A stretch of 6,070 bases of DNA, from contig JACOYC010000007.1 of NCBI GenBank assembly GCA_016182015.1, positions 1-6,070 of the forward strand, in the 5' to 3' direction. Shown here piece after piece: positions 2,159-5,457 of this stretch. Position 1 is the first letter of the stretch. Each line of letters starts with the position of its first letter. Below the pieces are notes generated by a model, which saw only the letters and a program-made list of their open reading frames with translations, ran no database searches and had not been told where the DNA came from. The position numbers and the translations under genes are program-made. Source of the stretch: Nanobdellati archaeon (GTDB taxonomy: Archaea; Nanobdellota; Nanobdellia; UBA10117).

Positions 2159-2175
2159 CTAATATGAAATATTAG
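2159..2175 (-). terminator. AT-rich hairpin just 3' of tRNA-Asp (possible 3' processing or termination element)
   Basis: CTAATAT-GAA-ATATTAG forms a perfect 7-bp inverted repeat abutting the tRNA-Asp discriminator base (2177). Confidence 0.3.
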
Positions 2176-2176
2176 G

Positions 2177-2461
2177 CGCCTGAGCCGAGATTCGAACTCG
2201 GGTCTGAACCGTTCTGCATGACAACCAAAGTACTTCAGCCGATCGCAGATCGGCTTGCCTTTTCTTTGGGTTGCCGACAAAATCCATTTTGGATTTTGCG
2301 GACACATCTGAACTTTGTTCAGATTGTGCCACGACACCTTTCTTTTTACGACGCAAGAAAAATCCGAAGATTTTTCTGCGCCCAGAAAATGCTTTGCATT
2401 TTCTTGGGAAAGAAAGGGGTTGTGTGACAGGGTTCTATCCTAACCGCTAGACTACTCAGGC
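2177..2461 (-). tRNA. tRNA-Asp (anticodon GUC), intron-containing
   Basis: Exons 2461-2425 and 2211-2177 join to 72 nt: GCCUGAG-UA-GUCU-AGCGGUUA-GGAU-A-GAACC-CUGUCAC-GGUUC-AGAC-CCGAG-UUCGAAU-CUCGG-CUCAGGC-G. Acceptor stem 7/7, T stem 5/5, anticodon stem 5/5; the D stem has two G.U pairs. The 3' trailer is CCU, so CCA is not fully encoded. Confidence 0.9.
2212..2424 (-). other. tRNA-Asp intron, 213 nt, canonical position 37/38
   Basis: C32UGU35 pairs with the intron 3' GCAG. The 3' bulge is AA|C38 and the 5' bulge is C36A37|C. An ACAACC/GGUUGU helix closes the intron, with an extra CAU opposite the 5' bulge, so the BHB is relaxed. The interior is filled with 6-13 bp hairpins and holds no plausible ORF. 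Confidence 0.8.
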
Positions 2462-2484
2462 ATAGCTTTTCGTTTTGTGTGCGC

Positions 2485-2492
2485 TTTTTAAA
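2485..2492 (-). promoter_or_regulatory. TATA box of tRNA-Asp
   Basis: Sense TTTAAAAA lies 24-31 nt upstream of tRNA position 1 (2461). CTAT immediately precedes +1, as it does for tRNA-Tyr. Confidence 0.6.
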
Positions 2493-2512
2493 GTTGAGTC
2501 CCGCCCTCAGGA

Positions 2513-2663
2513 TTTTCTTTATCATCCTTTTTCCTTAGCGCCATCGTAGATGGCGCACGGGGGAATCAGGGTGAGCGTCCCAATCGAACGAAGTTCGATG
2601 TGCGGCAAAATCCATTGGATTTTGATTGCAACCTGAAGGGGGCAGAGCCCCCTTCGGGTCCGT
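2513..2663 (-). other. tRNA-Tyr intron 2, ~151 nt, inside the T-loop (about 59/60)
   Basis: The T arm is split: UCAGG-UUCAAA ends at 2664 and U-CCUGA-GGGCGGG-A resumes at 2512. A-runs on both sides make the boundary ambiguous by up to ~4 nt. The interior has the hairpins GAAGGGGGC-TCT-GCCCCCTTC, CAAAATCC-AAT-GGATTTTG, ATCGAAC-TTC-GTTCGAT and GCGCCAT-CTACG-ATGGCGC. I could not draw a clean BHB by eye. Confidence 0.65.
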
Positions 2664-2685
2664 TTTGAACCTGAAACCTTCCGGG

Positions 2686-2723
2686 TTCTGAGCGCATATT
2701 GCTTGCCTAGCGGCAAGTGCTGT
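2686..2723 (-). other. tRNA-Tyr intron 1, 38 nt, at or near 37/38
   Basis: Sense sequence is ACAGCACTTGCCGCTAGGCAAGCAATATGCGCTCAGAA, with an internal hairpin CTTGCC-GCTA-GGCAAG. The 3' end UCAG pairs with C32UG (U35.U mismatch), followed by the bulge AA|C38. The boundary is ambiguous by +/-1 nt. Confidence 0.7.
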
Positions 2724-2783
2724 CTACAGCCAGACGCTCTACCAGGTTGAGCTAGGGCGGGATAGATAGTGCTGCATATTTGG

Positions 2784-2792
2784 TTTAAAAAA
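2784..2792 (-). promoter_or_regulatory. TATA box of tRNA-Tyr, doubling as a T-run after the upstream CDS
   Basis: Sense TTTTTTAAA lies 23-31 nt upstream of tRNA position 1 (2761). It is also 15 nt downstream of the TAA (2809-2807) of the surface-protein gene. Confidence 0.6.
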
Positions 2793-4250: not shown

Positions 4251-4307
4251 TGTTTCTAGATCGCATAATGAGCAATCCACAATGATATATGGTGAGGCTG
4301 CGCAGAT

Positions 4308-4464
4308 TTGTTCCGCACATCGGGATTTGCGGGATTGTTAAATCCCGCTGTTTTTCTTTTTGGGTTCCCAGGAGCCTTTTTCTTTCCAGAGCCGAATGAA
4401 ATTCGGCTTGGCCAAGAAAAATGCCGAAGCATTTTTCTCTGGTTTTAAAAGAAAAAGGGTGCTG
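4308..4464 (-). other. tRNA-Pro intron 2, ~157 nt, inside the T-loop (56-60)
   Basis: CGCAG-UUCAA ends at 4465 and AU-CUGCG-CAGCCUC-A-CCA resumes at 4307. Read without splicing, the local T-loop would be AACAAAU, which lacks U54 and U55. The exact boundary is ambiguous by ~2 nt. It contains the three-way-junction module at 4375-4458. Confidence 0.65.
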
Positions 4465-4484
4465 TTGAACTGCGGTCACACCCA

Positions 4485-4583
4485 TTCTGGTAAAGACATC
4501 TTTTGTGCGATTGAAAATCGCACTTTTCTTTCTTTAGACGCCCAGGAGCGTTTCTTTCTTTTTAAAAGAAAGAAAAGCTGCTG
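4485..4583 (-). other. tRNA-Pro intron 1, 99 nt, at or near 37/38
   Basis: The sense strand starts CAGCAGC and ends CCAGAA. CCAG pairs with U33GG35 (A32.G mismatch), followed by the bulge AA|U38. It contains CTTTTCTTTCTTT...AAAGAAAGAAAAG (+ 4523-4577) and the hairpin GTGCGATT-GAA-AATCGCAC (+ 4505-4523). The boundary is ambiguous by +/-1 nt. Confidence 0.65.
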
Positions 4584-4638
4584 CCCCATGGGCGTAGCCT
4601 ACCAAGCTAGCCGACAGCCCCGCTAAGAATTTATTTAT

Positions 4639-4663
4639 AGCTTTAAAAGTTCTTTTACTATTT
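4639..4663. repeat. 25-bp exact direct repeat, copy A (tRNA-Pro promoter region)
   Basis: AGCTTTAAAAGTTCTTTTACTATTT is identical to 4751-4775. Confidence 0.9.
4641..4648 (-). promoter_or_regulatory. Candidate TATA box of tRNA-Pro
   Basis: Sense TTTTAAAG lies 20-27 nt upstream of G1 (4621), slightly closer than for the other two tRNAs. It sits inside the 25-bp repeat that duplicates the adk 3' end. Confidence 0.4.
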
Positions 4664-4720
4664 GTACAGCCCCCTTTCTTTGGGAAAGAAAGGTGCTCTA
4701 CGAAACCACCAAAGAAACCT

Positions 4721-4739
4721 GTGCGATATTCTATCGCAC
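4721..4739 (-). terminator. Hairpin 8 nt downstream of the adk stop (terminator-like, or a cassette of the intron hairpin family)
   Basis: GTGCGATA-TTC-TATCGCAC has a perfect 8-bp stem. In the adk sense it is followed by AGGTTTCTTTGG. The same stem occurs in tRNA-Pro intron 1 (4505-4523). Confidence 0.4.
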
Positions 4740-4746
4740 TAAATTT

Positions 4747-5457
4747 TTACAGCTTTAAAAGTTCTTTTACTATTTTTTCAGCATCTGCTTTTACGCTACT
4801 AACGTCTTTTTCCGCATTGACTGGTCTAAACGCGGCGGAATATGTTCTGCGCATGCTTTCCACCATTGGCCATGTCTTCTTATCATACTCACGTATCGCA
4901 TTCGCAAACATGTCGTAATTAACATCTTCCTGCCTGATGTAAAGCCCGCCCCCGCAGGCATCACATCTGTCCGCAGTTTTTGGCGGAGAAAACTTAACAT
5001 GATAGACTAAACCGCATGGCCTGCAGCTCCTTCTTCCCTTGGCCCGCTCAAACAATGTATCGTCATTCGCAATGTCAAGGTAAAGCACTGCATCAAAATC
5101 AATCTCCCATTTCATATGTCCGTTCACGCGCTCGAACATCCTTTCGAGAAAATCCAGCTGTCCAGTAGTCCTTGGGTAGCCAACCCAAAAAGCAACCGAG
5201 CCCGGCTTCATTGCAAAAAATTGATGCTCGACAAGGGAATTCATGTACGGATCCGGAGTAAGGCTTCTGTCTGCATCAAAATGCTCTGCGACTTTTCCAA
5301 GCAAAGTCCCGTCGCGCTTGCCTGCCCGCAGCAAATTTCCGGTTGCGATATGCTGCGAGTCCGGTATTTGTTTGAGTAAGTGCTGCAGAACAGTGTCTTT
5401 GCCCGAGTAAACAGCGCCAATTATAACCACATTCTTAACTGGTTTAAGTTCAGCCAC
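4747..5457 (-). CDS. adk: Adenylate kinase, long form with a four-Cys zinc LID
   Basis: Motifs: GAVYSGKDT (P-loop; compare GxPGxGKGT), HIATGNLLRA (compare IStGdlLRa), GYPRTTGQ (compare GfPRTxxQ), LID GRRSCRPCGLVYHVKFSPPKTADRCDACGGGLYIRQEDV (CxxC...CxxC), and IREYDKKTWPMV. The start is GTG at 5457; the next in-frame Met is residue 72, after the P-loop. GAGGT (+ 5463-5467) lies 5 nt upstream. Confidence 0.9.
   Translation of the reverse strand: MAELKPVKNVVIIGAVYSGKDTVLQHLLKQIPDSQHIATGNLLRAGKRDGTLLGKVAEHFDADRSLTPDPYMNSLVEHQFFAMKPGSVAFWVGYPRTTGQLDFLERMFERVNGHMKWEIDFDAVLYLDIANDDTLFERAKGRRSCRPCGLVYHVKFSPPKTADRCDACGGGLYIRQEDVNYDMFANAIREYDKKTWPMVESMRRTYSAAFRPVNAEKDVSSVKADAEKIVKELLKL
4751..4775. repeat. 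25-bp exact direct repeat, copy B (last codons of adk)
   Basis: AGCTTTAAAAGTTCTTTTACTATTT is identical to 4639-4663. Here it encodes the adk C-terminus (...KIVKELLKL). Confidence 0.9.

What the first reader, a model, noticed from the sequence alone, without database searches (positions are those of the whole stretch)
2499..2761. tRNA-Tyr with two introns, one of ~151 nt inside the T-loop
The 5' half of the T arm (UCAGG-UUCAAA, ending at 2664) and the 3' half (U-CCUGA plus the acceptor, from 2512) are ~151 nt apart. A separate 38-nt intron sits at 37/38. T-loop introns are known as non-canonical positions in some archaeal lineages, and they need a splicing endonuclease that tolerates relaxed BHB motifs. 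One this large is unusual. I could not draw a strict BHB at this site, so how it is recognised is open.
Basis: partly seen in the sequence, partly recalled or inferred. Interest (0 to 1): 0.65.

Follow-up and report, generated by a model that had tools for sequence, protein, structure and literature searches.

The report
Split tRNA-Tyr gene with a large T-loop intron
This is a real tyrosine tRNA gene from an uncultured DPANN archaeon, interrupted by a 38-base intron next to the anticodon and a 151-base intron in the T-loop; this kind of interruption is already known in these archaea, but this intron is about ten times longer than the one tested example and is built from four perfect hairpins.

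Summary
On the minus strand, 2761..2499 encodes tRNA-Tyr(GUA) in three exons (38, 22 and 14 nt), separated by a 38-nt intron at 37/38 and a 151-nt intron in the T-loop. ARAGORN and Rfam find nothing in the raw DNA. After in-silico splicing, ARAGORN calls tRNA-Tyr.

The closest relative (neighbouring protein 94% identical) has a 42-nt intron at the same site. There the junction can only be 59/60. Six of the nine exon differences from the window form three compensatory pairs, one of them spanning the insert.

The splice site is not a strict BHB. It is a relaxed hBH: T stem, 3-nt bulge AA^U, then a 3-bp UUC/GAA helix. The local minimum-energy fold predicts this unaided. It matches the 13-nt 59/60 hBH intron of ARMAN-2 tRNA-Cys, which the epsilon2 endonuclease cleaves in vitro.

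Of 60 tRNA-Tyr genes retrieved, 24 (Micrarchaeota, Aenigmatarchaeota and unclassified archaea) carry T-loop inserts of 42-211 nt, so 151 nt is not exceptional in this clade.

The unreported part is the architecture. The intron is four perfect hairpins. The window holds two more hidden tRNA genes (Asp, Pro) with 99-213-nt hairpin-array introns. Intron size and position change between close relatives. No RNA data or endonuclease gene were available.

The parts
2784..2792 (-). TATA-like box TTTTTTAAA, 23-31 nt upstream of tRNA-Tyr position 1
   Evidence: Read directly. The block cgcacagaacttttttaaacca is identical in relative L067. tRNA-Asp has TTTAAAAAG at the same spacing (2484-2492).
2724..2761 (-). 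tRNA-Tyr exon 1 (positions 1-37: acceptor 5' strand, D arm, anticodon stem 5' strand, CUGUAG)
2686..2723 (-). Intron 1, 38 nt, canonical 37/38 position. Outer helix is the anticodon stem, H is CUG/CAG plus a U.U mismatch, bulges are AG^A and AA^C.
   Evidence: Homologous to the 37/38 introns of L067 and L069, where H is 4/4.
2664..2685 (-). tRNA-Tyr exon 2 (C38, anticodon stem 3' strand, variable loop AGGUU, T stem 5' strand UCAGG, U54-A59)
2513..2663 (-). T-loop intron, 151 nt, at 59/60
2499..2512 (-). tRNA-Tyr exon 3 (U60, T stem 3' strand CCUGA, acceptor 3' strand GGGCGGG, A73). No CCA is encoded.
2666..2669 (-). 5' strand of central helix H (U54 U55 C56 A57), followed by the 5' bulge A58 A59 ^ A (2665..2663)
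2512..2518 (-). 3' strand of H (A G A A, 2518..2515; three pairs plus an A.A mismatch) and the 3' bulge A A ^ U60 (2514..2512)
2635..2655 (-). Intron hairpin 1, GAAGGGGGC-UCU-GCCCCCUUC (9 bp; extended by GACC/GGUU)
   Evidence: A similar hairpin occurs in the T-loop introns of L054 and L058.
2606..2624 (-). Intron hairpin 2, CAAAAUCC-AAU-GGAUUUUG (8 bp). A second copy lies in the tRNA-Asp intron at 2278-2298.
2583..2599 (-). Intron hairpin 3, AUCGAAC-UUC-GUUCGAU (7 bp)
2538..2556 (-). Intron hairpin 4, GCGCCAUC-UAC-GAUGGCGC (8 bp), with an outer imperfect stem UCACCCUGAUUCC/GGAAAAAGGAUGA

Best explanation
2761..2499 (minus strand) is a functional tRNA-Tyr(GUA) gene of an uncultured DPANN archaeon, interrupted by two protein-spliced (archaeal endonuclease-type) introns.

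Inferred pathway: the gene is transcribed from its own TATA box as a 263-nt precursor. The four intron hairpins fold locally. This leaves the A-rich 3' tail of the intron free to pair G-A-A with U54-U55-C56. The result is a relaxed hBH motif: the T stem as outer helix, a 3-nt bulge A-A^U60, a 3-bp central helix, and a 5' bulge A58-A59^A that faces a multi-helix junction instead of an inner helix h'. A broad-specificity splicing endonuclease cuts after A59 and before U60. It cuts the 37/38 intron in the same way. RtcB-type ligation then restores the T loop UUCAAAU, and CCA is added.

Shown here: the exon anatomy, the cloverleaf after removal of the inserts, the orthologous intron at the same site, the compensatory exon changes, the hBH fold in the local MFE, and the hairpin content.

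Inferred, not shown: transcription, cleavage and ligation, and the endonuclease type.

The large size most likely reflects gain of hairpin modules inside an ancestrally short (about 42 nt) 59/60 intron. It probably does not reflect a conserved function of the intron.
For: 1. In-silico splicing gives an ARAGORN tRNA-Tyr with archaeal identity elements C1-G72 and A73. The raw sequence gives nothing.

2. Syntenic orthologue L067 (GCA_016204275.1; neighbouring 471-aa protein 94% identical) has a 42-nt insert at the same place. Only junction 59/60 yields UUCAAAU there. It forms h=6 bp, H=3/4 and h'=6 bp.

3. Mature window and L067 sequences differ at 9 of 74 positions. Six of these are three compensatory pairs: 5:68 C-G to U-A, 27:43 U-A to C-G, and 28:42 C-G to U-A. 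The 5:68 pair spans the T-loop insert. The promoter block is identical.

4. The unconstrained MFE of the T arm plus intron (168 nt, -68.6 kcal/mol) forms the T stem, a 3-nt bulge, UUC/GAA and four hairpins. The same motif is predicted for L054.

5. The same geometry (T stem as h, 3' bulge AA^U at 59/60) has H=UUCA/UGAA, 4/4 pairs, in L045, L048, L054 and L058. A one-base-shifted 58/59 geometry (H=GUUC/GAAC) pairs 4/4 in 17 of 18 Micrarchaeota/Aenigmatarchaeota genes. There the intron-side variants GGAC, GGGC and GAAU all keep pairing.

6. All three 37/38 introns in the window have the same form: outer helix, 3' bulge AA^N, and an H of 3-4 bp.

7. An hBH intron at 59/60 is an experimentally cleaved substrate of ARMAN-2 epsilon2 EndA (PMC3239211). 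DPANN EndAs with insert loops go along with more disrupted tRNA genes (PMC5829648).

8. Independent Logan assemblies reproduce window 2587..2171 at 100% identity.
Against: - No RNA evidence exists for transcription or splicing.
- The window alone gives only a 3-bp H helix with an A.A mismatch and no h'. I estimate that 3 of 4 pairs with UUCA would arise by chance in about 14% of random 4-mers. The geometry therefore rests on relatives and on the local fold.
- The MFE of the full 263-nt precursor is not the cloverleaf. It is 24 kcal/mol lower (-116.6 against -92.9) and uses an 8-bp pairing of exon GAGCGUCU (2739..2732) with intron GGGACGCUC (2581..2573).
- The endonuclease of this organism is unknown.
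- The 5' 76 nt of the intron (2663..2588) is supported only by the window's own assembly, because contig L001 starts at 2587.
- A second, uninterrupted tRNA-Tyr gene elsewhere in the genome cannot be excluded from a 6-kb window.
Confidence: 0.82

Rival explanations
1. Dead gene. A tRNA-Tyr gene was inactivated when palindromic or mobile DNA inserted into its T loop, and the working tRNA-Tyr is encoded elsewhere.
For: - The insert consists of perfect DNA palindromes of a kind that also sit outside introns (the 75-nt element at 4671-4745).
- The BHB is weak: a 3-bp H and no h'.
- The full-length MFE does not favour the cloverleaf.
Against: - The exons are intact and co-vary with the orthologue, including across the insert.
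- The promoter is conserved.
- The same site is interrupted in 23 other tRNA-Tyr genes, and pairing of the intron 3' end to the T loop is maintained.
- In the three related genomes the syntenic tRNA-Tyr is always interrupted somewhere.
- All three tRNA genes in the window are interrupted in the same style.
Confidence: 0.06
2. The 151-nt intron is kept because it encodes a functional stable RNA, for example a C/D-box-like guide as in the haloarchaeal tRNA-Trp intron, or a stable circular RNA. This would be in addition to being spliced out.
For: - The intron is very stable and structured (MFE -62.9 kcal/mol, z = -5.4).
- It has CUGA (within 2573..2564) and AUGAUAA (within 2527..2517) flanking hairpin 4.
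- It has an 8-bp complement to exon positions 22-29 just upstream of that CUGA.
Against: - No Rfam family matches even at E<=1.
- There is no 5' C box, and the C'-like box lacks the second G.
- About 4 such 8-bp complements are expected by chance between a 151-nt and a 74-nt sequence (my estimate).
- The intron sequence is not conserved even in the 94%-identity relative, whose 42-nt intron has none of these hairpins.
- The gene in L069 lacks the T-loop intron altogether.
Confidence: 0.08
3. Assembly artefact. The 151-nt stretch is a chimeric join of hairpin-rich reads, and the real intron is shorter or different.
For: Independent contigs from the same sample series break inside the introns: L001 starts at window 2587, L004 ends near 4393, and L002/L003 end near 4688. 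Related populations differ by whole-hairpin indels.
Against: - Both flanks of the insert belong to one co-varying tRNA.
- The overlapping parts of four independent assemblies are 100% identical.
- Inserts of similar and larger size occur at this site in many unrelated assemblies.
- A chimera would not change the conclusion that a T-loop intron exists.
Confidence: 0.04

Closest known systems
ARMAN-2 (Ca. Micrarchaeum acidiphilum) pre-tRNA-Cys(GCA) 59/60 intron, relaxed hBH type, cleaved by the epsilon2 splicing endonuclease (Fujishima et al. 2011, PMC3239211)
   Same: Same superphylum (DPANN). Same intron position (59/60 in the T loop). Same relaxed motif class: outer helix, bulge and central helix, with no inner helix.
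   Different: 13 nt there against 151 nt here. Here the inner helix is replaced by a junction of four perfect hairpins. The isoacceptor differs (Tyr). Cleavage has not been tested for this substrate, and the endonuclease type is unknown.
Multiple-intron tRNA genes and transposing tRNA introns of Thermoproteales (Sugahara et al. 2008 and Fujishima et al. 2010, as cited in PMC4033280 and PMC8450103)
   Same: Several introns per gene at canonical and non-canonical sites. Related intron sequences occur in different tRNA genes: the window tRNA-Pro 37/38 intron is 89% identical over 82 nt to the L069 tRNA-Asp 37/38 intron. Gain and loss are rapid between relatives.
   Different: Thermoproteales introns are mostly short (tens of nt; my own knowledge) with recognisable BHB motifs. 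Here the introns are 99-213 nt arrays of perfect 7-11-bp hairpins, in a mesophile-like, ~44% GC DPANN genome.
Haloarchaeal tRNA-Trp intron (~105 nt) carrying a box C/D guide RNA (cited in PMC4090602)
   Same: A tRNA intron longer than 100 nt, excised by the BHB pathway.
   Different: That intron sits at 37/38, has a strict BHB, and has conserved C/D boxes with a known function. Here no complete C/D boxes exist, there is no conservation, and the position is in the T loop.
Cyanidioschyzon merolae ectopic D-, anticodon- and T-arm tRNA introns (PMC3728597, PMC9602550)
   Same: Introns in the T arm are removed by a BHB-recognising endonuclease.
   Different: That organism is a eukaryote and its introns are short. 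The two lineages are unrelated.

Membership tests
Archaeal endonuclease-spliced (BHB-type) tRNA intron | Removing the insert restores a canonical cloverleaf tRNA with the identity elements of its isotype | tested here: met
   ARAGORN calls tRNA-Tyr(gta) after splicing, with C1-G72, A73 and T loop UUCAAAU.
Archaeal endonuclease-spliced (BHB-type) tRNA intron | Strict hBHBh' motif: two 3-nt bulges separated by a 4-bp helix and flanked by two helices | tested here: not met
   h=6 bp, H=3/4 (A57.A mismatch), h' essentially absent (xx|x|x).
Archaeal endonuclease-spliced (BHB-type) tRNA intron, relaxed hBH/BHL class | Outer helix, 3-nt bulge holding the 3' splice site, and central helix; the 5' site lies in a bulge or loop | tested here: met
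   T stem, AA^U, and UUC/GAA are found by rule-based scoring and by unconstrained local MFE. The full-length MFE differs.
Archaeal endonuclease-spliced (BHB-type) tRNA intron | Orthologues keep an intron, or an intact loop, at the same site while the exons co-vary | tested here: met
   L067 has a 42-nt intron at 59/60. L069 has an intact T loop. There are three compensatory exon pairs.
Archaeal endonuclease-spliced (BHB-type) tRNA intron | Cleavage by EndA and ligation by RtcB, with a spliced product in vivo | not testable with these tools
   No RNA data and no enzyme were available.
Archaeal endonuclease-spliced (BHB-type) tRNA intron | The host encodes a broad-specificity EndA: (alpha-beta)2, epsilon2, or a loop-bearing alpha4 | not testable with these tools
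   The window and the related contigs hold no EndA gene.
Self-splicing group I intron in tRNA | Catalytic core P3-P9, usually more than 200 nt, located in the anticodon loop | tested here: not met
   No Rfam group I match at E<=1. The intron is 151 nt of four simple hairpins and sits in the T loop.
Split or permuted tRNA gene | Exons lie at separate loci or in permuted order, with separate promoters | tested here: not met
   The exons are colinear within 263 nt, behind one TATA box.
Box C/D sRNA-bearing tRNA intron | C (RUGAUGA) and D (CUGA) boxes at the ends, plus C'/D' boxes and a guide complementary to a target | tested here: not met
   Only CUGA and AUGAUAA are present, around hairpin 4. 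There is no 5' C box and no conservation in L067.
Mobile (transposing) tRNA intron family | Closely similar intron sequence in other tRNA genes or at other positions | tested here: inconclusive
   For the Tyr T-loop intron, only hairpin 2 recurs (in the Asp intron); blastn finds no other copy. For neighbouring introns the feature is met: window Pro 37/38 against L069 Asp 37/38, 89% over 82 nt.

The most novel reading that the evidence does not exclude
The large tRNA introns of this DPANN lineage may be built and reshaped by small mobile palindromic hairpin modules. These would insert into tRNA introns at any position (D loop, 37/38, T loop) and also into intergenic DNA. They would persist in introns because relaxed-specificity splicing removes them harmlessly, making tRNA introns safe harbours for a previously undescribed class of miniature non-autonomous elements.

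Supporting observations:
- The window has 19 perfect hairpins against 1.6 expected, and 17 of them lie in tRNA introns or spacers.
- A ~75-nt two-hairpin unit is present in the window tRNA-Pro 37/38 intron, inverted in the spacer upstream of tRNA-Pro (flanked by a 37-nt direct repeat), in the L069 tRNA-Asp 37/38 intron, and in the L069 tRNA-Tyr D-loop intron.
- L054, L058 and L048 differ by whole-hairpin indels while their exons are identical.
- One tRNA-Tyr lineage carries a 42-nt or 151-nt T-loop intron, or a 152-nt D-loop intron, in three close relatives.
Probability: 0.35. Interest if true: 0.65.

Novelty: new variant of a known kind. Interest (0 to 1): 0.45.

Why it matters
Standard tRNA finders (ARAGORN, the Rfam tRNA model) miss all three tRNA genes in this window and every tRNA in eight related loci. 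Genomes of this lineage will therefore look as if they lack tRNA-Tyr, tRNA-Asp and tRNA-Pro. This affects completeness estimates and claims of 'missing tRNAs' in DPANN.

Biologically, the gene extends the known substrate range expected of a relaxed-specificity splicing endonuclease. The tested case is a 13-nt hBH intron. Here the insert is 150-210 nt and its inner helix is replaced by a multi-hairpin junction.

The set of close relatives also carries different intron sizes and positions in the same gene. That makes it a compact natural system for studying how archaeal tRNA introns are gained, moved and expanded.

Tried and rejected
- **Direct detection.** ARAGORN and Rfam (E<=1) on the raw window found no tRNA. 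The only Rfam match was a chance IRES_Cx43 hit at 4506-4590, a hairpin inside the tRNA-Pro intron.
- **Metagenome scan with the exact 27-mer of exon 1.** 0 hits. A degenerate pattern then gave 19 loci.
- **blastn of the 151-nt intron against all 69 loci.** No homologue beyond itself. MAFFT against the introns of the L045 group aligned only the junctions.
- **First parse of tRNA-Pro with three introns (39 + 60 + 157 nt).** Rejected. The supposed exon piece GGGCG lies inside a repeat element that is colinear with the L069 Asp intron. The correct parse has two introns (99 + 157 nt), with GGGUG as the 3' strand of the anticodon stem and the usual CAGAA^N intron end.
- **C/D-box guide RNA reading of the intron.** Rejected: the boxes are incomplete and there is no conservation.
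- **Group I intron, split or permuted tRNA, and integration of a large element at the tRNA 3' end.** Rejected on anatomy.
- **Intron CCUGA (2570..2566) as an alternative T-stem partner.** It is not conserved in L045 or L067, so I did not pursue it.
- **Protein searches to widen the set of relatives.** ADK, the 471-aa protein and the 107-aa protein yielded only three related genomes. One contig (ERZ27297570) had no retrievable DNA.

Full report
**Observation.** Read on the minus strand, 2761..2499 contains every part of a tRNA-Tyr(GUA), in the right order but in three pieces.
- Exon 1, 2761..2724: CCCGCCC-UA-GCUC-AACCUGGUA-GAGC-G-UCUGG-CUGUAG.
- Intron 1, 2723..2686: 38 nt.
- Exon 2, 2685..2664: C38-CCGGA-AGGUU-UCAGG-UUCAAA.
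- Insert, 2663..2513: 151 nt.
- Exon 3, 2512..2499: U60-CCUGA-GGGCGGG-A73.

ARAGORN and the Rfam tRNA model see nothing in the raw DNA, even at E<=1. With the two inserts removed, ARAGORN returns tRNA-Tyr(gta) with C1-G72 and A73. Exon 3 is a perfect 12-nt Watson-Crick complement to two pre-defined upstream segments. I estimate that such a match arises by chance about 3e-5 times within 500 nt. A TATA-like box, TTTTTTAAA, lies 23-31 nt upstream (2792..2784).

**Origin.** The flanking genes are two P-loop kinases, an adenylate kinase, a 471-aa secreted-type protein and two ORFs with no family match. They have only three close relatives in 5.8 billion proteins, from two NCBI MAG assemblies and one contig with no retrievable DNA. 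One MAG is labelled 'DPANN group archaeon'. Gene order is conserved among them: ADK, tRNA-Pro, 471-aa gene, tRNA-Tyr and tRNA-Asp, 107-aa gene.

**Evidence that the gene is functional.**
- In L067 (GCA_016204275.1; 471-aa protein 94% identical) the syntenic tRNA-Tyr has a 41-nt 37/38 intron and a 42-nt T-loop insert.
- In L067 only junction 59/60 restores UUCAAAU, so the position is unambiguous. The motif there is nearly complete: h 6 bp, H 3/4, h' 6 bp after a 2x2 mismatch.
- The 5' end of that intron (A-CGG) matches the window's, which fixes the window's ambiguous A-run junction at 59/60.
- The mature sequences of window and L067 differ at 9 of 74 positions. Six of these are three compensatory double changes (5:68, 27:43, 28:42), and the 5:68 pair spans the T-loop insert.
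- The promoter block is identical, while the introns are unalignable.
- In L069 (GCA_053535855.1; 84%) the same gene has an intact T loop. It carries a 152-nt intron in the D loop (H = GCUC/GAGC, bulges AG^U and AA^A) and a homologous 40-nt 37/38 intron.

**Recognition of the T-loop intron.** I scored every junction compatible with the mature T loop against the BHB geometry.
- For the window, only 59/60 gives an outer helix (T stem plus one pair, 6/6), a central helix U54-A, U55-A, C56-G (with A57.A mismatched), and 3-nt bulges A58A59^A and AA^U60. There is no inner helix.
- This is a relaxed hBH motif.
- The unconstrained MFE of the T arm plus intron (168 nt) reproduces the motif exactly: T stem, 3-nt bulge, UUC/GAA, then a multiloop with four hairpins.
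- The same geometry with a perfect UUCA/UGAA helix occurs in L045, L048, L054 and L058.
- A one-base-shifted geometry (58/59; G53UUC56 paired to GAAC, with the GUGUG/CACAC T stem slipped by one) occurs in 18 Micrarchaeota/Aenigmatarchaeota genes. There the intron-side variants GGAC, GGGC and GAAU all preserve pairing.
- The three 37/38 introns of the window follow the same rule: outer helix, 3' bulge AA^N, and an H of 3-4 bp.
- In the literature, a 13-nt hBH intron at 59/60 of ARMAN-2 tRNA-Cys is cleaved in vitro by the epsilon2 endonuclease (PMC3239211). DPANN endonucleases with extra loops correlate with more disrupted tRNA genes (PMC5829648).

**Caveats.**
- For the window alone a 3/4 match is weak. 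I estimate about 14% by chance.
- The MFE of the whole 263-nt precursor is not the cloverleaf. It is 24 kcal/mol lower and uses an 8-bp exon-intron pairing.
- No RNA data exist and no endonuclease gene was found.
- The 5' half of the intron is supported only by the window's own assembly.

**Content of the intron.** It folds into four hairpins with perfect Watson-Crick stems of 7-9 bp and 3-nt loops (MFE -62.9 kcal/mol, z = -5.4). It matches no Rfam family. It has only partial C/D-like boxes and is not conserved in the 94% relative. A conserved function for the intron RNA is therefore unlikely.

**Wider context (outside the finding).** The window holds two more hidden tRNA genes on the same strand.
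- tRNA-Asp(GUC), 2461..2177, has a 213-nt 37/38 intron.
- tRNA-Pro(GGG), 4621..4293, has a 99-nt 37/38 intron and a 157-nt T-loop intron at 58/59.
- The window contains 19 perfect hairpins (stem >=7, loop 3-4), against 1.6 expected. Seventeen of them lie in these introns or adjacent spacers.
- Hairpin families recur in relatives.
- A ~75-nt two-hairpin unit occurs in four places: the window's tRNA-Pro 37/38 intron; inverted upstream of tRNA-Pro, between 37-nt direct repeats; the L069 tRNA-Asp 37/38 intron (89% over 82 nt); and the L069 tRNA-Tyr D-loop intron.
- The tRNA-Pro of the relative has introns of only 14 and 42 nt.
- L067 tRNA-Asp has three short introns, at 29/30, 37/38 and 53/54.
- L054, L058 and L048 have identical exons and 37/38 introns, but T-loop introns of 107, 150 and 187 nt that differ by whole hairpins.
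- Among 60 tRNA-Tyr genes retrieved with a D-arm pattern, 24 have T-loop inserts of 42-211 nt. In 21 distinct such inserts (these plus L067), all are more structured than shuffles, with 21 perfect hairpins against 0.9 expected.

**Comparison and novelty.** The position (59/60), the relaxed hBH class and the multi-intron state are all documented for DPANN and Thermoproteales. The finding belongs to a known kind.

I found no description of three things in the searched literature: T-loop introns of 100-200 nt, their construction from perfect hairpin modules with a multi-helix junction in place of h', and the very fast turnover of intron size and position between near relatives. The search covered open-access papers only.

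I rate the finding as a new variant of a known kind, of moderate interest. Its practical consequence is that standard tRNA finders miss these genes entirely.

Noticed in passing
window 2177-2461 (minus strand): Hidden tRNA-Asp(GUC), 37 nt downstream of tRNA-Tyr, with its own TATA box (2484-2492). It carries a 213-nt intron at 37/38 (2212-2424) made of five perfect hairpins. ARAGORN calls it only after in-silico splicing.
   Followed up: yes
window 4293-4621 (minus strand): Hidden tRNA-Pro(GGG) with a 99-nt 37/38 intron (4485-4583) and a 157-nt T-loop intron at 58/59 (4308-4464; H = GUUC/GAAC). CCA is encoded after A73. The orthologue in L005 has introns of only 14 and 42 nt.
   Followed up: yes
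window 4634-4782: A 37-nt direct repeat (the ADK 3' end plus the TATA box; 4746-4782 and 4634-4670, 92% identical) flanks a 75-nt two-hairpin element (4671-4745). That element is an inverted copy of part of the tRNA-Pro 37/38 intron and is absent from relative L005. It looks like an insertion with a long target duplication that re-created the tRNA-Pro promoter.
   Followed up: partly
window 2159-2655 and 4329-4739: The window holds 19 perfect Watson-Crick hairpins (7-11 bp stems; 13 with 3-nt loops and several with UUCG tetraloops), against 1.6 expected from shuffles. Only one lies in coding sequence. The stems contain no G.U pairs, which points to DNA-level palindromes or recent origin rather than selection on RNA alone.
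   Followed up: partly
L069 2742-3007 (minus strand) and 1751-2035: In GCA_053535855.1 the tRNA-Tyr/tRNA-Asp pair is inverted relative to the 471-aa gene. tRNA-Tyr has a 152-nt D-loop intron instead of a T-loop intron. tRNA-Asp has a 103-nt 37/38 intron, 89% identical over 82 nt to the window's tRNA-Pro intron, plus a 102-nt T-loop intron.
   Followed up: partly
L067 1652-1905: In the 94% relative the Tyr-Asp spacer is about 250 nt, against 37 nt in the window. It contains the hairpin AGAAAAATGCATCGGCATTTTTCT, near-identical to one inside the window's tRNA-Pro T-loop intron (4415-4438). tRNA-Asp there has three short introns, at 29/30, 37/38 and 53/54.
   Followed up: partly
L048, L054, L058 (JGI metagenomes) and L045: These are near-identical tRNA-Tyr genes with the same exons, flanks and 37/38 intron in L048, L054 and L058. 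Their T-loop introns are 187, 107 and 150 nt and differ by insertion or deletion of whole hairpins. This looks like population-level length polymorphism.
   Followed up: partly
window 2573-2581 vs 2732-2739: Intron segment GGGACGCUC is complementary to exon GAGCGUCU (D-stem 3' strand through the anticodon stem) and lies 3 nt upstream of a CUGA. This pairing dominates the full-length MFE. It is probably chance (about 4 such matches are expected by my estimate), but it would compete with cloverleaf folding.
   Followed up: partly
L001-L004 vs window: Independent Logan assemblies from four runs are 100% identical to the window, but all break inside tRNA introns or spacers (at about 2587, 4393 and 4688). 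This suggests strain variation or assembly difficulty at the hairpin arrays.
   Followed up: no
L045, L054, L058 (8-13 kb each): ARAGORN finds no tRNA at all in these loci, although each carries at least the interrupted tRNA-Tyr. tRNA complements of these lineages are likely under-called in annotations.
   Followed up: no
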